From Promethearchaeota archaeon (GTDB taxonomy: Archaea; Asgardarchaeota; Lokiarchaeia; Sigyniarchaeales; SOKP01): a stretch of DNA of 64,000 nt. Position numbers and translations under genes: made by a program. This document shows positions 57,070 to 63,999 of this stretch, one piece after another. Under the pieces are notes generated by a model. The model was not told where the DNA came from. It made no database searches and worked only from the letters and a program-made list of their open reading frames with translations. The stretch lies in the NCBI GenBank assembly GCA_016840165.1, contig JAEOSU010000029.1:1-64000 (forward strand), written 5' to 3'. Position 1 is the first letter of the stretch. Each line of letters starts with the position of its first letter.

Positions 57070-57822
57070 ATGAAGATTCATTCTTTATTCATTCTAAACA
57101 AAACTGGCGCTTGTATCTACAGTAGAAATTTCACAGAAGATTTTAGAAATATCGAACCTAACTTGATTACGCCTTTTTTTTCAGCAATTTTCTCATTTTC
57201 AGAAAACGTAATCTCACAAAAGACACCGGAGGTATTGGAAATGGGAGGATTTCGATTTGTCTTTCAAATAAAGGAAGAATTTATTTATACGATATTATCA
57301 GATTCTAGTGTAAGCTTGCTTTTTATAAAATCACGTTTGAAAACTATTACTAAGGAATTCGAAAATTTTTTGGAACAAAATGCAATTGAAGATTATGAAA
57401 TAGTTCAGAACGAAGAATTTGATGAAAAAATAGACGGAATTATCACGGGGGATGATATCATCACCAATAGTAAAGTTCTTTATAAAAAAATCATAGATCT
57501 TATTAAAAAACTAGTTTATGAAAATGAAATTTTAGGAGCTGCTTTATTTGCTATTAATGGAAAGGTTATCTATACCTCTCTTCCACAAAATATACTATTA
57601 TCCTCTATCAAAGAATTGGAAATTCGTTTTATGGTGGCTAATGAGTTTGATGAGACCTTCTATAGTCTAGAAAACGATCAAAGAGTTTTTTCTAAGCGTA
57701 TTAGAATTCCGTGGAAACTAGAACCCCTAATAATTGTAGTTCTATTTGACTCTGGTGTACCTACTGGTATGGCTGAAGTAAACTTAGATAAAATAGTTAA
57801 AAATATTGAAAATATTATCTAA
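57070..57822 (+). CDS. Longin + roadblock-like two-domain protein
   Basis: LFILNKTGACIYSRNF...LITPFFSAIFSF (longin); ILGAALFAINGKVIYTSL (roadblock-like). Confidence 0.8.
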   Translation: MKIHSLFILNKTGACIYSRNFTEDFRNIEPNLITPFFSAIFSFSENVISQKTPEVLEMGGFRFVFQIKEEFIYTILSDSSVSLLFIKSRLKTITKEFENFLEQNAIEDYEIVQNEEFDEKIDGIITGDDIITNSKVLYKKIIDLIKKLVYENEILGAALFAINGKVIYTSLPQNILLSSIKELEIRFMVANEFDETFYSLENDQRVFSKRIRIPWKLEPLIIVVLFDSGVPTGMAEVNLDKIVKNIENII

Positions 57823-57883
57823 TGAACTCAATTTTTCAATAAAACCAAAATTTTTTTACTGCTTAATATTTACATTCATACTT

Positions 57884-59152
57884 ATGTATGATATTATTGT
57901 AATCGGTGCGGGTATTTCTGGAACTTCTTTTGCTTATAAAAGTTCTAAATTTGCAAATACACTGCTCATTGAGGCACAAGACTATAATACCCAAATTCCT
58001 GAACGAACAAATATTTATGCTGAGCATAATAAACCATTTATCGAAGAGTTGTTTTGGAATGATCGTGAAATATTTCCCCGCGATTTTATTCAGCTTAATT
58101 ATAAAAGCGAACAAAATGATGGTCTTCTACATTCAAAAGAATTTGGAGCTCCTTTAGGTAAAATTTGTCATACTGAAATCTTTTTGAAAAAGTTAATCAA
58201 TCGCTTTAAAGATAATGATGGAGAGACTAAATTTAATGAAACAGTTTCTAAAATTAACCATCATCAAGATTTTATTGAGCTAATTACAAACAAAGGGGAA
58301 ACTATCAAAGCTAAAACACTTATACTTGCGACAGGTTCCCGTGGATTTGAACTGCAAAAATCTTTTGGGTTTGAAACACCTGATTCTTTTAAGGGAATAT
58401 ATTTGAATACCTTTGCTGATGAGGATCTTCTCGATCAAAACTTCACTTTTCAGTATATGTTTCATTTAAATCCAAATATAAGTATGAATGGGCCTTTCTT
58501 CTTCAATATTGGAAAAGGAAGACTTTCTGCTGGTTTTCTTGGTAATTTAGAGTCTCCCAGTCAATTAAAAGATAAGCTCCAAAGAATATTACAGAATTAT
58601 AATAAAATTCAAGATTTTATTAAAGGAATTACCTGGGATTTAAACCAGGTTGTTGTAGGTGACATTTCAAAACATCCAATTAAGAACATGTCAAAGGACA
58701 GAGTGCTGGTATTAGGAGAAGCTGCAGGCTTAGTTACTTCATTTTTCTACGAAGGAATGTTATGTGGTTTAGCAAGTGCCGATATCGCTTCAAAAGTAAT
58801 CCAATCGCTCCTAAATAATGGTAGTAATTTTTCTAAGGCAGAGTTAAACAACTACGATCGCGAAGTCTCAAAATTACTCTTAGAAAAATATTTTAGAAAT
58901 GGGAATGCATGTGAATACCTTTTTTATAAGACCAATGCGAGCACCAGTAAGACCATTTGGGACGCATACACCGATATGTTATTAAAAAATAAAACAGTGA
59001 GACAGTTCGTATATGATGTTCTTTTAATTCAAGATTTCACGCAATATAATACGGATAACGATCGATGGGTCGGAGAGAAATTGTTTGGCAACTTACCAAT
59101 TATTTCTAAAGCTACACTATGGCCTCGCTTTCTCAAGGCAATGAGTTTTTAG
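57884..59152 (+). CDS. Geranylgeranyl-reductase-like FAD oxidoreductase
   Basis: MYDIIVIGAGISG, ILATG, LGEAAGLVTSFFYEG; ATG at 57884. Confidence 0.8.
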   Translation: MYDIIVIGAGISGTSFAYKSSKFANTLLIEAQDYNTQIPERTNIYAEHNKPFIEELFWNDREIFPRDFIQLNYKSEQNDGLLHSKEFGAPLGKICHTEIFLKKLINRFKDNDGETKFNETVSKINHHQDFIELITNKGETIKAKTLILATGSRGFELQKSFGFETPDSFKGIYLNTFADEDLLDQNFTFQYMFHLNPNISMNGPFFFNIGKGRLSAGFLGNLESPSQLKDKLQRILQNYNKIQDFIKGITWDLNQVVVGDISKHPIKNMSKDRVLVLGEAAGLVTSFFYEGMLCGLASADIASKVIQSLLNNGSNFSKAELNNYDREVSKLLLEKYFRNGNACEYLFYKTNASTSKTIWDAYTDMLLKNKTVRQFVYDVLLIQDFTQYNTDNDRWVGEKLFGNLPIISKATLWPRFLKAMSF

Positions 59153-59427: not shown

Positions 59428-59922
59428 ATGGCTTCAGAATATGCAATCCTCGCAAAACTGGGCGGGTTCGTTGGAAGTAATCCTGAAATCGTAAGTTCCT
59501 ATCCTCCTTACACTGCTGTAGGGAACGAAACAGAAATACTGAACTCATGTTTTCCACTTGGTGCAAAAGCAGGAAAGTTTTTTGAAGATAGATTTCGTAA
59601 GTATATAGCGTTATCCTATGTTTTTAAAGTGCGAAAAAGCGCAGAAAGAGATGATCTTTTTTCATTTTCCGTCCTTTTACATAAACGTGACAAGGTGGAA
59701 ATATACAAGAAAGTATTAACTGAACTAATAAACATTTTAGAAAGCAATGGACGATTATCTGAGAGTGTGCTTACACAATATCATCAAAAAATTTATGAGG
59801 GTATAAATTCAGAGTCAGATATTTTAATTGAGGATCTACTAATTGATTTTTCGAGAATTTTTAAAGAAGTTAAAGCAAAAGTTCTTAAACAAAAACCACA
59901 ATTAAAAGGGAGTTTTTTCTAA
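59428..59922 (+). CDS. Stand-alone uDENN/longin-like protein
   Basis: PEIVSSYP...ILNSCFPLG matches the uDENN P-x-I-x-x-x-(F/Y)P...CFPxG pattern. Confidence 0.7.
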   Translation: MASEYAILAKLGGFVGSNPEIVSSYPPYTAVGNETEILNSCFPLGAKAGKFFEDRFRKYIALSYVFKVRKSAERDDLFSFSVLLHKRDKVEIYKKVLTELINILESNGRLSESVLTQYHQKIYEGINSESDILIEDLLIDFSRIFKEVKAKVLKQKPQLKGSFF

Positions 59923-60566
59923 TGGCAGAAGACATATTATTGACAAATTTACAATTCAGTGGATATATTTTAAGTGCTATTATAATACCTTTGGCAACAA
60001 TAATTCTAGGTAGAAAATTATTTAAAGAAAAAGCTATAACAGGATCTTTCAATCACGTTAAGCTAATTACCTTCAGCATTTTTGCTTGTTTCTCAATTAT
60101 GAGTGTGTTAGAGTTGATAGTTGAAATGAGTTGGTTTCCCCTACTCAGCGAAATCTTTGGCTTTAATATTAATAGCGTCAATCTTTATTCAATATTAATT
60201 GGTACCATGGTATCATTAGGTCTTACCTTGGTTTTCTATGCAAATCGATGGGAAATGTTCTATTATACTGCACTTTTTTTTTTTGGTGGAATGGTAATCT
60301 TCTATTATTTTACTGGATTTGATGCTTGGCTTGAAAGTTATATACACTTCGCAGGTCTCTGTAGTTTAGTTTTTATGTATATCACTAGTTTTCGTATTAA
60401 AGATAACGGAGCACTGGGATTGGCAATCTTTTATACACTAGTATTTAGTGTATTAATATGGGGTATGCCCTATTTTACTCAAATTATAATTCTTTCATAT
60501 AATGCATTCCTTCTTATGTTTTCATTTGGACTCTTCAAACCTTTTAAACAGGAGGTAGCAGAGTAA
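59922..60566 (+). CDS. Seven-TM membrane protein A
   Basis: Seven hydrophobic segments; TAATG overlap with the upstream gene. Confidence 0.8.
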   Translation: MAEDILLTNLQFSGYILSAIIIPLATIILGRKLFKEKAITGSFNHVKLITFSIFACFSIMSVLELIVEMSWFPLLSEIFGFNINSVNLYSILIGTMVSLGLTLVFYANRWEMFYYTALFFFGGMVIFYYFTGFDAWLESYIHFAGLCSLVFMYITSFRIKDNGALGLAIFYTLVFSVLIWGMPYFTQIIILSYNAFLLMFSFGLFKPFKQEVAE

Positions 60567-60567
60567 A

Positions 60568-61218
60568 ATGTCAAATTTAGCATATTCTATATGTGAAATA
60601 ATAATTATCATATTTTGTGTCTTGACTCTTTTCCCAATTATTCAATCTTGGCGAGACACTAAGAATAGGATGTATATAGCTGTTTTTACTTTGACACTTG
60701 GAATTATTGGTTATTCGATAGCTAATTTACTAACATATTTATTTGAAATTGACACTACTGCATACTTGATTGGAGGACTTCGATTTGGCTATATCCTTGG
60801 ATATATGCTGGCTACAATTCAGTTCGAATTTATGCTTTACCTAAGGCGACTCATTAAATTATATACTCTACCATTTATAATTGCATTTTATTTGATGTTA
60901 GGAAATATTTTAGTGATTAATAGTATTCCTTTCATTATATACCTAGCATTTATTACTTTTGTCCCAGCTTATATCCTTTTAAGAGATGGAAAAAGAAAAC
61001 ATAATGGATTAGCGTTCGGTATGGGAATGCTTTTTCTGCTATGGGGTATTGGACAAATGTTTCCAATAACCATTGTGATTGCACTATTTCGAACTGTAGC
61101 TGTTTTCTCTTTCTTCTTAGGTACGCGTGGATTTTACGAAAAATACATCTTCCCACGGCAAGAAGAAGAAGAAAAAATCATGGGAACATGGATCTCTAAG
61201 TTAGTAGTTAAAGATTAA
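60568..61218 (+). CDS. Seven-TM membrane protein B with charged cytoplasmic tail
   Basis: Seven hydrophobic segments; 1-nt gap after gene A; GGAGG SD inside the end of gene A. Confidence 0.8.
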   Translation: MSNLAYSICEIIIIIFCVLTLFPIIQSWRDTKNRMYIAVFTLTLGIIGYSIANLLTYLFEIDTTAYLIGGLRFGYILGYMLATIQFEFMLYLRRLIKLYTLPFIIAFYLMLGNILVINSIPFIIYLAFITFVPAYILLRDGKRKHNGLAFGMGMLFLLWGIGQMFPITIVIALFRTVAVFSFFLGTRGFYEKYIFPRQEEEEKIMGTWISKLVVKD

Positions 61219-61398
61219 TCTTATTTTTTCTTATCTCTATTTTTATTTATTATTTTGTTAAATCATCTACTTCTTTTGTGTGCTAAATTAATAATTTGTG
61301 GCAACAGAACAAAAAATGGATAAAAAAGATTATTTTTATAATCCAAATTATACCTTATTTTTAAGATTATAAAATTACGTTTTGAAAAATTATAAATC

Positions 61399-62295
61399 AT
61401 GGCAGTTAAGAGTTTATTACGAAGGATTTTTACCAAAGAAAAGAAGATTGTAATCTGTGGTCTAGATTCAGCAGGCAAAACAACTATGGTATCATTCCTT
61501 CAGAATGGAACCTTCATGGAACACACTCCAACCATGGGAAAAGAGATGACTACCATGGAAATTCAAGGCATAAGGATTAATATTATGGATATGGGAGGGC
61601 AAAAAGATTTCAGAGAGTTATGGACTGGCGAAGCCAATCATGCAGAATGTGTGATATTCATGATCGATGCCTATGCTCGGAAGAGATTTAATGAAGCTCG
61701 AGATGAATTATGGAAATTATCAAATGTTTTAAAAAAAAAACCGTTAGTCGTTCTAGCAAATAAGTATGACCTCCATCCTGTTGCTCAGATTAGTGAGATA
61801 ATTGATGTATTAGAACTTAAAAGATTACCTTCATTCGAAGTTCTACCTATATCATGTAAAACAGGTTATGGGATAGTAAGAGCATTCATGAAAATCTACT
61901 ATAAATTAACTGGAAAGCAACTAACAAGACGCTTAAGTGTTAAAGGAGTGACAGTTTTCGACAAAGCCGGTATTCCACTTACCTCATCCTCAAATCAAGA
62001 TATTTTACAAGGAGGATTATTTACCGCTATCAGCAGTTTTGTACAGGAATCCTTTAATTCAGAACTCAACCAACTAAAGATTGGTAATCATATCATTGTC
62101 TTCAAACGTTCTAAAAACTTATTAGGGTCATTAGTGCTTAGTGATTCAGATAATATTGATCCCCAAGAAGCAGAAGATGGTTTAAGCGAACTTCTTTGTC
62201 ATTTAGAAAATATGTGTCCCGAATTGGGAAGTGATCAATTAGAACCTCAGAAGATAGAATACTTACTCGACCAATATGCTTCAAACTTATTGTAA
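61399..62295 (+). CDS. Arf/Sar-like small GTPase fused to a C-terminal longin-like domain
   Basis: Amphipathic SLLRRIF N-terminus, GLDSAGKTT, PTMG, DMGGQ, NKYD, SCKTG; VFDKAGIPL...LQGGLFTAISSF. Confidence 0.92.
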   Translation: MAVKSLLRRIFTKEKKIVICGLDSAGKTTMVSFLQNGTFMEHTPTMGKEMTTMEIQGIRINIMDMGGQKDFRELWTGEANHAECVIFMIDAYARKRFNEARDELWKLSNVLKKKPLVVLANKYDLHPVAQISEIIDVLELKRLPSFEVLPISCKTGYGIVRAFMKIYYKLTGKQLTRRLSVKGVTVFDKAGIPLTSSSNQDILQGGLFTAISSFVQESFNSELNQLKIGNHIIVFKRSKNLLGSLVLSDSDNIDPQEAEDGLSELLCHLENMCPELGSDQLEPQKIEYLLDQYASNLL

Positions 62296-62343: not shown

Positions 62344-63999
62344 TTAAAATAAAGAGTTTAATTTATTATCAAAGCTTTTGGAAATATTTTCCTTCATATT
62401 TTCTATACTATCTTTAAATTCACTAATATGCCTATTTAACTCTTGTTCTAACCTTGAATCTAAAGATGTTGATTTTTCTAAGCTCTCAACTGCGGAAAAA
62501 TATTCATTTTTTTCTAAATAGCAATGTCCCAAGAAGAGCCATGCCATAGCGTGGTCAGGTTCGATTTCCGTTACCTTCTTATAGATATCAATCGCTTTAT
62601 TAAGTTGGTTCTTCAACTTATAGGCATTTGCCATATTAAAGAAAGCCTCGGTATAGATAGGCTCAATTTCAATTGCTTTTTCATATGATTCAATAGCTTC
62701 ATCATATTCTTTTTTCTTAGTATAGACCAAACCCATGTGATTCCATGATTTTACATGGTTTTTAGTAAGATCTAAAGCTTTCTTAAATGAAGCTATGGCT
62801 TCATCATATTGCGCTTTATGAGAATTTGCTATTCCGATATAAAAGTAAGCATTGATATGAGTACTGTCGAGCTCAAGCGCTTTTTCACAGTCTCCAATCG
62901 CATGATCGAAATTATTAGTTTCAATTTCCTTTTTCGCTTTATTTATCAATTGGTTTTTATAATTAGTCTTAATGGGTACTTTATCCTTATACTCTGAGCT
63001 CTCGATTAAATCGTTTACCCGTATTGCTTTCTCGAAAAATTCGAAGCTATCTAAATAATTTCGACTATCTGCTAACTGATTTGCTTGTTCTACAATGAGT
63101 TTGATTTCAGAATAGTGAACTTCATCAATAGCTAACTTAATTTTATTCATCTCTTCAAAACGGCGTTGTTCATCAACAATAGTTTTAGCATATTCCATTT
63201 TTTTATCTAGCTTCTCTAATTCTTTTTCAAATTTTTTCTGTTCTTCGACTAGATCTCCTCTCCCAACTAAATCTTTTAATTCTGCTTGATAAATTAAACT
63301 CTTTATCTTGGCTATTTCCTCTTCCATTATTTCATTTAAGTACATCTTATTGGTAATATCCATAGCTTTTGTAAAGATTTCCAACGCTTCATTATAATTT
63401 TTTTGAGTAAGAAATGCTTTTCCTTCGACTAAGATTTCATTTATTTGAGATGAAAAAGCTTTATTAACAGAATCCTTTAATTTGTTTAATTCTTCATTTT
63501 CCTCTTCCCTAATAGGGATTTTCTTTGCAATACTAATCGCAGCATATAATTCATTTACAGCTCCTTCATAGTCTTTTTGCGCCAGTTTCCTTAGAGAATT
63601 GTCTCTTAATAAATCAATTCTGGTTAAACACACTTTTTTAATTAAATTTGAAATATTACTTACTTGGGTTTCTTTCTCCTTAGATTCAGCCATGTTTTCT
63701 GCGATATCTAAAGCTTCAGTAAAATCTCTAATTGCTTGATTCACTATGGTAAGATCTTGTGCATAATATTCTCTGCCAGTTAATTCCTTACCTTTTTCTA
63801 TCAAAGGCTCGATTCGAGACAAATAAACTGGATTTAATGCATCAGCAGAGACACTATTGATGTTTCGCATTACTTTCTCTTTTTGTTCTGATTCAAACAT
63901 TTTCCTAGCAACCTCAAGAGCACTTTCAAACTCTTTTACGGCCTCTTTGAAATTATTTTGTGAATAGAGTGATTTACCTTTTTCTAAGAGTGGTTCAAT
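62344..63999 (-). CDS. TPR-repeat protein (5' end outside window)
   Basis: Canonical C-terminal TPRs (AYFYIG, SWNHMG, AFFNMA, AWLFLG); frame is open to the window end. Confidence 0.92.
   Translation of the reverse strand: MEPLLEKGKSLYSQNNFKEAVKEFESALEVARKMFESEQKEKVMRNINSVSADALNPVYLSRIEPLIEKGKELTGREYYAQDLTIVNQAIRDFTEALDIAENMAESKEKETQVSNISNLIKKVCLTRIDLLRDNSLRKLAQKDYEGAVNELYAAISIAKKIPIREEENEELNKLKDSVNKAFSSQINEILVEGKAFLTQKNYNEALEIFTKAMDITNKMYLNEIMEEEIAKIKSLIYQAELKDLVGRGDLVEEQKKFEKELEKLDKKMEYAKTIVDEQRRFEEMNKIKLAIDEVHYSEIKLIVEQANQLADSRNYLDSFEFFEKAIRVNDLIESSEYKDKVPIKTNYKNQLINKAKKEIETNNFDHAIGDCEKALELDSTHINAYFYIGIANSHKAQYDEAIASFKKALDLTKNHVKSWNHMGLVYTKKKEYDEAIESYEKAIEIEPIYTEAFFNMANAYKLKNQLNKAIDIYKKVTEIEPDHAMAWLFLGHCYLEKNEYFSAVESLEKSTSLDSRLEQELNRHISEFKDSIENMKENISKSFDNKLNSLF

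What the first reader, a model, noticed from the sequence alone, without database searches (positions are those of the whole stretch)
59620..59680. Possible GAP arginine finger in the stand-alone uDENN protein
Seen: ...YVFKVRKSAERDDLFSFSVLL..., with an Arg in the loop before the last predicted longin strand. Known: the catalytic Arg of the longin-domain GAPs NPRL2, FLCN and SMCR8 sits in the equivalent beta4-beta5 loop, and SMCR8-C9orf72 is a GAP for Arf GTPases. Inference: this may be a minimal ancestral Arf-GAP for the neighbouring GTPase, which keeps the switch-II Gln (DMGGQ).
Basis: inference. Interest (0 to 1): 0.72.

Follow-up and report, generated by a model that had tools for sequence, protein, structure and literature searches.

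The report
Candidate archaeal Arf GTPase-activating longin
A small Asgard-archaeal protein folds like the catalytic end of the eukaryotic GTPase switch-off factor NPRL2, keeps the matching arginine, and sits in a conserved gene cluster with an Arf-type GTPase, which makes it a testable candidate for the still-unknown native Arf GAP of these archaea.

Summary
Window 59428-59922 (+) encodes a 164-aa protein, and the quoted peptide is residues 64-84. R74 (59647-59649) sits at the beta4-beta5 turn of a confidently modelled longin fold. It is invariant in 35 close homologs and present in 46 of 47 distant ones. R69 is not conserved.

The best structural matches are the N-lobes of human NPRL2 and yeast Npr2 (VIA Z 13.4 and 13.1), ahead of FLCN, DENND10 and SMCR8. 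Profile alignments place R74 on the NPRL2 finger Arg78, and N18-P19 on its G20-P21 motif. At sequence level this is not significant (E about 0.1).

Gene linkage is the strongest support. Longin, two membrane proteins and an Arf-family GTPase recur as a module in two gene orders. In distant lineages, 10 of 20 paralogous longins are followed directly by a roughly 180-aa Arf.

A complex prediction (ipSAE 0.80, best control 0.29) puts R74-L77 and the other conserved motifs on the GTPase P-loop, switch I and Gln68.

The most likely reading is an arginine-finger GAP for the linked Arf-family GTPase (about 0.6). NPRL2-like longins and an Arg/GP motif in Asgard longins are already published, so the new element is the pairing with a specific GTPase. 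No biochemistry exists.

The parts
59428..59922 (+). Gene for the 164-aa stand-alone longin protein (P0001), the candidate GAP
   Evidence: ORF. AF2 model has pLDDT 86 with longin topology. Best PDB matches are the NPRL2/Npr2 N-lobes, Z 13.4 and 13.1. 59 homologs, all from Asgard archaea.
59647..59658 (+). R74-D75-D76-L77 motif; R74 (59647-59649) is the proposed arginine finger at the beta4-beta5 turn
   Evidence: R74 is 35/35 and 46/47 conserved. It aligns with NPRL2 R78 in local and global hhalign. Residues 74-77 are in the predicted interface with switch I.
59458..59484 (+). L11-G-G13 and G16-S-N-P19 loop between beta1 and beta2; N18-P19 takes the place of the 'GP motif' of eukaryotic longin GAPs
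   Evidence: L11, G13, S17 and P19 are at least 89% conserved. The global hhalign puts N18-P19-x-I-x4-P26 on NPRL2 G20-P21-K-I-x4-P28. Distant paralogs read GPEI or GPKI here. Residues 11-13 and 15-19 touch the GTPase P-loop and Gln68 in the model.
59551..59562 (+). F42-P-L-G45 conserved loop after helix 1
   Evidence: P43 and G45 are at least 93% conserved. Residues 42-48 contact switch I residues 45-47 in the predicted complex.
59922..60566 (+). Multi-pass membrane protein 1 (214 aa); its start overlaps the longin stop (TAATG)
   Evidence: Hydropathy. No Pfam hit. A gene of 210-213 aa follows the longin gene in L001, L003, L004 and L007/L008, and ORFs cut at the contig end follow it in L006 and L009.
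60568..61218 (+). Multi-pass membrane protein 2 (216 aa), 1 nt after protein 1
   Evidence: Conserved in the module in L001, L003, L004 and L007.
61399..62295 (+). Arf-family GTPase (298 aa): N-terminal amphipathic helix, G domain (about 1-176) with GLDSAGKT, PTMG, DMGGQ and NKYD, plus a C-terminal domain of about 120 aa that is probably roadblock/longin-like; the proposed substrate
   Evidence: Pfam Arf E 7e-35. Best PDB sequence matches are 8oun, 8oum and 8oul, deposited as GTP-binding protein and Arf GTPase, and eukaryotic Arf/Arl. It is the best Arf-HMM match in the whole genome. The C-terminal domain has only weak leads: LAMTOR5 E 0.058 and an Atlas roadblock cluster at 0.86.
61600..61602 (+). 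Codon of Gln68 (switch II catalytic Gln)
   Evidence: Invariant in A3. It touches longin residues 11 and 16-18 in the predicted complex.

Best explanation
The 164-aa protein is a minimal, single-domain longin GAP for the Arf-family GTPase encoded in the same conserved module. The proposed mechanism is inferred. The concave face is formed by the beta1-beta2 loop (LGG, GSNP), the FPxG loop and the beta4-beta5 turn (RDDL). It docks on the GTP-bound G domain across the P-loop, switch I and switch II. R74 then enters the nucleotide site in trans as an arginine finger and, together with the GTPase's own Gln68, accelerates GTP hydrolysis. NPRL2 Arg78 does this on RagA, SMCR8 Arg147 on ARF1 and Avl9 Arg116 on Arf1. 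What is shown here is the fold, the conservation and position of the Arg, the conserved gene linkage and a model-supported interface. Catalysis, and the roles of the two co-transcribed membrane proteins (likely anchor or input), are inferred.
For: (1) Fold. The AF2 model is a longin. The best PDB matches are human NPRL2 (8fw5_B: Z 13.4, rmsd 3.3, 145 aligned, model 2-154 on chain 6-164) and yeast Npr2 (8adl_S: Z 13.1). These stand about 3 Z units above the next hit. Foldseek gives E 3e-5 and TMq 0.63. ESM-Atlas NPR2 clusters give TM 0.69.
(2) Arg. R74 is essentially invariant and lies at the beta4-beta5 turn. hhalign, both local and global, aligns it with NPRL2 R78, and N18-P19/P26 with G20-P21/P28. 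The start offsets of the VIA ranges agree with this.
(3) Linkage. The order longin-TM-TM-GTPase occurs in the window and in L001, L003 and L004. The order GTPase-longin-TM(-TM) occurs in homologs of 40%, 29% and 26% identity. In 20 distant paralog loci, 10 have an Arf-family gene (Pfam Arf E 1e-37 to 1e-43) as the immediate downstream neighbour, and one more has one within 700 nt. The genome G082 holds only 31 Arf-HMM matches in 4.1 Mb. All 11 linked longins keep the Arg. The two Arg-less paralogs have no adjacent GTPase.
(4) Complex. ipSAE is 0.80 against a best control of 0.29. That mark was reached by 58 of 80 solved complexes and 2 of 110 mismatched pairs. The runs agree in at least 98% of contacts and the partner pLDDT is at least 87. 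The interface is GTPase 23-24, 41-49, 68-70, 74 and 96 against longin 11-13, 15-19, 42-48, 65, 67 and 74-77. Ten of the 20 best-conserved longin positions fall in this 21-residue interface (p 1e-5). GTPase M46, G47 and D70 correspond by motif to ARF1 I49, G50 and K73, whose mutation reduced C9orf72-SMCR8 GAP activity (PMC8213707).
(5) Need for a GAP. Arf-family GTPases lack an intrinsic finger, and an Asgard Arf showed very low intrinsic GTPase activity (PMC11914678).
Against: There is no biochemical data. Sequence similarity to NPRL2 is not significant (hhalign E 0.12-0.15, probability below 1%), and Pfam NPR2 does not hit the protein or the genome. The R74=R78 equivalence therefore rests on fold similarity plus a non-significant alignment. 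I could not superpose coordinates or measure the R74 to gamma-phosphate distance, and R74 is not among the listed lowest-error contact pairs. The complex pass may reflect the model's memory of solved longin-GAP complexes, and it was run with my own shallow GTPase alignment (6 rows) and riding ligands. All characterised NPRL2/FLCN/SMCR8 GAPs work as longin heterodimers inside large complexes, and no partner longin is part of the conserved module. Most longin and roadblock platforms are GEFs or scaffolds. In the window the GTPase gene is 180 nt downstream behind a T-run, so it may be a separate transcript.
Confidence: 0.6

Rival explanations
1. The longin is a GEF or a nucleotide-state-specific platform or effector for the linked Arf GTPase, like the DENN, Mon1-Ccz1, TRAPP or Ragulator longin and roadblock modules. 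R74 would then be a binding residue, not a catalytic one.
For: Most longin and roadblock platforms act as GEFs or scaffolds (PMC10933270). The gene linkage and the predicted contact with switch I and II fit any switch-region binder. DENND1A/B and Mon1-Ccz1 longins also appear among the fold matches (Z 7-8.6).
Against: The best fold matches are the catalytic GAP longins, well above the GEF longins. The invariant Arg sits exactly where GAP longins carry their finger. The conserved surface matches the GAP surface (P-loop side, Gln68) in a model made with GTP and Mg. The Avl9 preprint reports that conservation of this surface marks GAP-type DENN proteins (10.64898/2026.01.05.697756).
Confidence: 0.2
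2. The longin is a GAP of the MglB type. It stimulates hydrolysis by ordering the switch regions and Gln68 of the GTPase without inserting a finger. R74 would have a structural role, for example a salt bridge with D75/D76.
For: Roadblock and longin GAPs without a trans finger exist (MglB; PMC10933270). R74 is not in the list of lowest-error contact pairs, whereas D75, D76 and L77 are. Roadblock folds appear among the matches at Z 6-7.
Against: The Arf-type GTPase has no intrinsic switch-I Arg comparable to MglA Arg53 (sequence). The fold match to NPRL2 is far better than to roadblock proteins. R74 is more strictly conserved than D75.
Confidence: 0.1
3. The longin works mainly with the two co-translated membrane proteins, as a cytoplasmic subunit or adaptor, and its link to the GTPase is indirect.
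For: The longin stop overlaps the start of membrane protein 1 (TAATG), and protein 2 follows after 1 nt, while the GTPase gene is 180 nt away. The longin-TM-TM block keeps its order in both module arrangements.
Against: In the distant two-gene modules the longin is paired with an Arf alone. There the hmmsearch with the longin and GTPase models showed only these two genes side by side, and membrane genes were not sought. The conserved surface maps to the predicted GTPase interface.
Confidence: 0.07

Closest known systems
NPRL2 / yeast Npr2 N-lobe (catalytic subunit of GATOR1/SEACIT, GAP for RagA/Gtr1; finger Arg78/Arg84)
   Same: It is the best structural match over nearly the whole protein (Z 13.4 and 13.1). 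The Arg lies at the same turn (R74 on R78 in hhalign). The [G/N]-P-x-I-x4-P motif before and in beta2 is shared. The linked GTPase has the Rag-type layout of a G domain plus a C-terminal roadblock-like domain.
   Different: No significant sequence similarity and no Pfam NPR2 hit. It is 164 aa, without the NPRL2 C-lobe. The module holds no NPRL3-like partner and no DEPDC5. The G domain of the linked GTPase is Arf-type, not Rag-type.
Avl9 / DENND6A / DENND11 / Afi1 family of monomeric DENN Arf-GAPs (bioRxiv 10.64898/2026.01.05.697756)
   Same: The catalytic Arg lies between beta4 and beta5 of the longin subdomain. These proteins act as monomers on Arf-family GTPases. Atlas clusters that carry DENND11, Avl9 and Afi1 families are among the structural neighbours (TM 0.58-0.64).
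   Different: The archaeal protein has only the longin part, with no central or downstream DENN lobes and no Pfam Avl9 or uDENN hit. Its activity is untested.
SMCR8-C9orf72 (Arf GAP, finger Arg147) and FLCN-FNIP2 (RagC GAP, finger Arg164)
   Same: Both use a longin fold with a surface Arg finger. SMCR8-C9orf72 acts on ARF1 through switch I (I49, G50) and switch II (K73), which are the positions equivalent to those in the predicted interface here.
   Different: The structural matches are weaker (FLCN Z 9.5, SMCR8 Z 7.5-8.0). They are obligate heterodimers with DENN domains.
Asgard 'FLCN/SMCR8-type' longins with GP motif and Arg finger (Traffic 2025, PMC12290439) and Asgard NPRL2-like longin asCOGs (bioRxiv 10.1101/2020.10.19.343400)
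   Same: The same kind of protein in the same phylum, with the same two motifs. Those authors already proposed possible GAP activity toward ArfR or Rag-like GTPases.
   Different: I could not check whether this family is in their sets, because the supplements are not held. This subfamily reads NP, not GP. The texts read here (passages found by term search, not whole papers) name no partner GTPase and no longin-Arf gene pairing. Tran et al. state that in strain MK-D1 GTPase genes are generally not in operons with longin genes.

Membership tests
Longin-domain arginine-finger GAPs (NPRL2 / FLCN / SMCR8 class) | Longin fold (beta2-alpha-beta3-alpha-alpha) | tested here: met
   AF2 model with pLDDT 86 and topology b1 3-11, b2 19-25, a1 34-41, b3 51-56, b4 59-71, b5 74-85, a2 90-106, a3 112-128. 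NPRL2 Z 13.4, FLCN Z 9.5, SMCR8 Z 8.0.
Longin-domain arginine-finger GAPs (NPRL2 / FLCN / SMCR8 class) | Conserved surface Arg at the beta4-beta5 turn, equivalent to NPRL2 R78 | tested here: met
   R74 is 35/35 and 46/47 conserved and lies at the turn. hhalign aligns it with R78. The alignment itself is not significant, and no coordinate superposition was possible.
Longin-domain arginine-finger GAPs (NPRL2 / FLCN / SMCR8 class) | 'GP motif' at the end of the beta1-beta2 loop, next to the finger (PMC12290439) | tested here: inconclusive
   The window protein has N18-P19 (P19 in 42 of 47; N18 in 34 of 47) at the position that hhalign puts on NPRL2 G20-P21. Distant paralogs read GP or GL. The Gly itself is absent here.
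Longin-domain arginine-finger GAPs (NPRL2 / FLCN / SMCR8 class) | Heterodimer with a second, non-catalytic longin (NPRL3 / FNIP / C9orf72) | tested here: inconclusive
   The conserved module has only one longin gene. A 250-aa longin-like gene lies upstream in close relatives only. Arg-less paralogs exist in other genomes. The oligomeric state was not modelled.
Longin-domain arginine-finger GAPs (NPRL2 / FLCN / SMCR8 class) | Arg-dependent stimulation of GTP hydrolysis | not testable with these tools
   This needs a GAP assay with wild type and R74A.
Pfam NPR2 (PF06218) sequence family | A match to the family HMM above the gathering score | tested here: not met
   No hit at E up to 1 for the protein and none at E up to 10 in the whole genome. 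The C-lobe is absent, since the protein ends at 164 aa.
DENN proteins (uDENN-DENN-dDENN), including Avl9-type Arf-GAPs | uDENN longin followed by central and downstream DENN lobes | tested here: not met
   The protein is 164 aa and all of it is used by the longin plus helices. There is no Pfam uDENN, DENN or Avl9 hit. No homolog longer than 225 aa exists among 1.84 billion representatives. It may work like an Avl9-type GAP but is not a DENN protein.
Arf family (for the linked GTPase) | Arf HMM match, GLDxAGKT P-loop, DxGGQ...R.LW switch II and interswitch, N-terminal amphipathic helix | tested here: met
   Pfam Arf E 7e-35. GLDSAGKT, DMGGQKDFRELW and N-terminal MAVKSLLRRIF are present. The top PDB hits are 8oun, 8oum and 8oul (deposited as GTP-binding protein and Arf GTPase) and eukaryotic Arf/Arl. 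The helix's amphipathicity was read by eye.
Rag/Gtr GTPases (for the linked GTPase) | Rag-type G domain plus a C-terminal roadblock domain that dimerises | tested here: inconclusive
   Gtr1_RagA scores E 4e-6, far weaker than Arf. The C-terminal 120 aa have only weak roadblock leads. The fold was not modelled.

The most novel reading that the evidence does not exclude
The four-gene module would be a self-contained, membrane-coupled Arf switch of Asgard archaea. Two multi-pass membrane proteins act as anchor or sensor. An Arf-type GTPase has a Rag-like roadblock tail. A one-domain longin supplies the arginine finger. Together with the many two-gene longin-Arf pairs in other Asgard lineages, this would mean that the longin Arg-finger GAP mechanism for Arf/Rag-type GTPases (NPRL2, FLCN, SMCR8, Avl9) arose in archaea as a cognate, operon-encoded GAP-GTPase pair and was later built into the eukaryotic lysosomal and Golgi complexes.
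Probability: 0.25. Interest if true: 0.85.

Novelty: new member of a known kind. Interest (0 to 1): 0.66.

Why it matters
Asgard archaea encode many Arf-family GTPases, but their native regulators are unknown. Zhu et al. 2025 searched by structure and found no credible Arf GAP (PMC11914678). The 2025 Traffic paper asked which GTPase family partners the Arg/GP-motif longins (PMC12290439). Tran et al. 2024 noted that the lack of operons makes GTPase-regulator matching hard (PMC10933270). This locus and its relatives offer defined, small, soluble longin-Arf pairs that can be expressed and assayed directly. A positive result would date the longin arginine-finger GAP mechanism to before eukaryogenesis. 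It would also give a minimal model for the GATOR1, FLCN, C9orf72 and Avl9 type of GAP.

Tried and rejected
1. Pfam scan of the longin gave no uDENN, NPR2, Folliculin or Avl9 hit, only sub-threshold noise. A PF06218 search of the whole genome gave nothing.
2. Profile searches of PDB sequences with A1 and A2 returned only chance hits (eL19, a deoxyribonucleotidase and two sulfotransferases).
3. hhalign of the family profile, and of a broader profile that includes distant paralogs, against vertebrate NPRL2 N-lobes gave a consistent register but E 0.12-0.6, so it is not evidence of homology on its own. BLASTP of P0001 against NPRL2 found nothing relevant. I could not obtain diverse non-vertebrate Npr2 sequences to deepen the template profile.
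4. Folding the NPRL2 N-lobe from a 9-row vertebrate alignment, to compare strand registers, failed (pLDDT 35) and was discarded.
5. The supplement of PMC12290439 (the Asgard longin sequences) is not held. PMC6393612 and PMC10050129 are not held either.
6. Membrane proteins: the Atlas gave only unnamed archaeal clusters.
7. GTPase C-terminal domain: the PDB sequence search gave only a chance hit, and the Atlas gave only a 0.86 lead to a roadblock cluster.
8. Neighbours of the Arg-less or unpaired paralogs (L047, L051) showed only a trypsin-PDZ protease and unknowns.
9. The bacterial sigma-70 and terminator scan of the locus was at background level and does not apply to archaea.

Full report
**Observation.** Window 59428-59922 (+) is an open frame of 164 codons. 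The quoted peptide is residues 64-84, and the given coordinates begin at V65. It holds two arginines. R69 varies freely. R74 (AGA, 59647-59649) is invariant in 35 close homologs. It is present in 46 of 47 cluster representatives that go down to 24% identity. The one exception reads KRD and looks shifted by one column. R74 heads an R-D/N-D-L motif. Other near-invariant positions are L11, G13, S17, P19, P26, P43, G45, Y64, F66 and S79.

**Family and range.** Both sequence searches found only proteins of Asgard archaea. One was word-indexed over 5.8 billion proteins. The other was an exhaustive HMMER pass over 1.84 billion representatives. The named records come from Promethearchaeota, Heimdall-, Hod- and Hermodarchaeota MAGs. 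Lengths are 59-225 aa, so the protein really is a stand-alone domain. The family occurs in 92 of 400 genomes of the phylum. It is single-copy in the window's own genome (99.7% complete) and reaches nine copies in one genome. Pfam gives no hit.

**Fold.** An AF2 model made from the 35-row alignment is confident (pLDDT 86, pTM 0.83). It has longin topology, with beta4 at 59-71, a two-residue turn and beta5 at 74-85, so R74 sits at the beta4-beta5 turn.
- Foldseek against the PDB ranks NPRL2/Npr2 chains of GATOR1 and SEAC first (E 3e-5, TMq up to 0.63).
- An independent all-against-all VIA search gives human NPRL2 Z 13.4 (rmsd 3.3, 145 aligned, model 2-154 on residues 6-164) and yeast Npr2 Z 13.1.
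- The next matches are a Lokiarchaeal roadblock-longin protein (10.4), DENND10 and FLCN (9.5), DENND1A (8.6) and SMCR8 (8.0).
- ESM-Atlas neighbours are the protein's own archaeal cluster, then NPR2 and NPRL3 clusters (TM 0.69) and a DENND11/Avl9 cluster (0.64).

**Is R74 the NPRL2 finger position?** I retrieved NPRL2 sequences with a short query and confirmed Arg78 in ...KKYSRNALLFNLGFV.... hhalign of the family profile against the NPRL2 N-lobe gives a single local alignment in which R74 pairs with R78. The global alignment also pairs N18-P19-E-I-x4-P26 with G20-P21-K-I-x4-P28. That is the 'GP motif' which the 2025 Traffic paper describes as spatially next to the finger. Distant paralogs actually read GPEI or GPKI there. 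These alignments are not significant (E 0.12-0.6), so they fix the register but do not prove homology. An attempt to fold the NPRL2 N-lobe for a strand-by-strand check failed (pLDDT 35). No tool allowed a coordinate superposition.

**Neighbourhood.** The longin stop overlaps the start of a 214-aa multi-pass membrane protein (TAATG). A 216-aa membrane protein follows after 1 nt. After a 180-nt AT-rich spacer comes a 298-aa GTPase.

The GTPase is Arf family:
- Pfam Arf scores E 7e-35.
- The motifs GLDSAGKT, PTMG and DMGGQKDFRELW and an N-terminal amphipathic-looking helix are present.
- The best PDB relatives are 8oun, 8oum and 8oul, deposited as GTP-binding protein and Arf GTPase.
- It is the best Arf-HMM match in the whole genome.

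It also carries a C-terminal domain of about 120 aa with only weak roadblock leads. That gives a Rag-like architecture on an Arf-like G domain.

**Conservation of the linkage.** The same four genes in the same order occur in homologs of 52-65% identity, even where the flanks differ (L001, L003, L004). In homologs of 40%, 29% and 26% identity the order is GTPase-longin-TM(-TM).

I then cut out 20 loci of distant paralogs from four genomes of two other families and one further genome.
- Ten have a gene of about 180 aa as the immediate downstream neighbour. It is Arf family (Pfam Arf E 1e-37 to 1e-43, GL[DA]xAGKT, D[LM]GGQ, MSFLLNLF-type N-terminus).
- One more has an Arf gene 700 nt away.
- One of these genomes has only 31 Arf-HMM matches in 4.1 Mb, so this adjacency is far beyond chance.
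- All 11 linked longins keep the Arg.
- The only two paralogs that lack it (NEEA[MI]L) have no adjacent GTPase.

**Predicted complex.** The G domain (1-176, 6-row alignment), the longin (35 rows), GTP and Mg gave ipSAE 0.80 against a best control of 0.29. That mark was reached by 58 of 80 solved complexes and 2 of 110 mismatched pairs. The runs agree in at least 98% of contacts and the partner pLDDT is at least 87.

The interface joins the P-loop (23-24), switch I (41-49) and switch II (Gln68-Asp70) of the GTPase to longin residues 11-13, 15-19, 42-48, 65, 67 and 74-77. These are the family's conserved motifs: 10 of the 20 best-conserved positions lie in the 21 interface residues (p 1e-5). By motif alignment, GTPase M46, G47 and D70 equal ARF1 I49, G50 and K73, whose mutation reduced C9orf72-SMCR8 GAP activity (PMC8213707).

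Caveats apply. Similar complexes are solved, so the pass may be partly memory. It shows likeness, not binding. The ligands are not scored, so the Arg-phosphate distance is unknown.

**Interpretation.** The best-supported reading (about 0.6) is a one-domain arginine-finger GAP for the linked Arf-family GTPase. It would work like NPRL2 on RagA, SMCR8 on ARF1 or the newly described monomeric Avl9-type DENN GAPs, whose Arg also lies between beta4 and beta5 of the longin. The rivals are:
- a GEF or platform role (0.2);
- an MglB-like GAP without a trans finger (0.1);
- a primary role with the membrane proteins (0.07).

**Membership.** The protein is not a member of Pfam NPR2 or of the DENN family. 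It has no HMM hit, no C-lobe and no DENN lobes. It resembles their catalytic longin.

**Prior knowledge.** NPRL2-like longin families in Asgard archaea were reported by Liu et al.. Asgard longins with a GP motif and an arginine finger, and the question of whether ArfR or Rag-like GTPases are their partners, were published in 2025. Zhu et al. found no credible native Arf GAP. Tran et al. found that GTPase and longin genes are generally not in operons in MK-D1.

The finding is therefore a new member of a known kind. What this analysis adds is the recurrent longin-Arf gene pairing, the four-gene module and a controlled interface model that names specific, testable pairs. I found no paper in the held library that describes this pairing.

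**Earlier notes of this scan.** They describe the same module and the same Arg. I verified the gene layout and the Arf-type GTPase. I did not find sequence support for the claim that the two membrane proteins are paralogues.

Noticed in passing
L004:8176-8178: The orthologous GTPase gene in this MAG carries an in-frame TAA where orthologs have Gln56 (CAA). It splits the gene into ORFs of 84 and 236 aa. This is a nonsense mutation or a read error.
   Followed up: partly
window 57070-57822 (+): A 250-aa protein has weak Sybindin and Fuz_longin_1 hits (E 1e-3 and 6e-3). With the FAD-dependent oxidoreductase at 57806-59152 it lies upstream of the module in L003 and L004, but not in L001. It may be a second longin-type regulator.
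   Followed up: partly
L047:3884-4456 (-) and L056:3896-4477 (-): These paralogs of the longin family read NEEA[MI]L in place of the R-D/N-D-L motif and have no adjacent GTPase gene. They are candidates for non-catalytic partner longins analogous to NPRL3, FNIP and C9orf72. The neighbours of L047 are a trypsin-PDZ protease and unknowns.
   Followed up: partly
window 59922-60566 and 60568-61218 (+): Two multi-pass membrane proteins (214 and 216 aa) are translationally coupled to the longin gene. They have no Pfam family and no significant similarity to each other by BLASTP, and the Atlas search of the first (214 aa) gave only unnamed archaeal clusters. Genes of about 210-216 aa in these positions recur with the module (their kinship was judged by length and place only).
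   Followed up: partly
window 61219-61398: The 180-nt spacer before the GTPase gene starts with a T-rich run and contains TATA-like boxes. The GTPase may be transcribed separately from the longin-TM-TM block.
   Followed up: no
window 62344-63999 (-): A long TPR-repeat protein converges on the GTPase gene. A 785-aa TPR gene lies at the same place in L003 and L004, but not in L001.
   Followed up: no
G000 (whole genome): The genome holds 52 matches to the Arf HMM at E up to 1e-10, many on open frames of 300-1100 aa. This is a large small-GTPase repertoire. The GTPase of this module is the top-scoring match.
   Followed up: no
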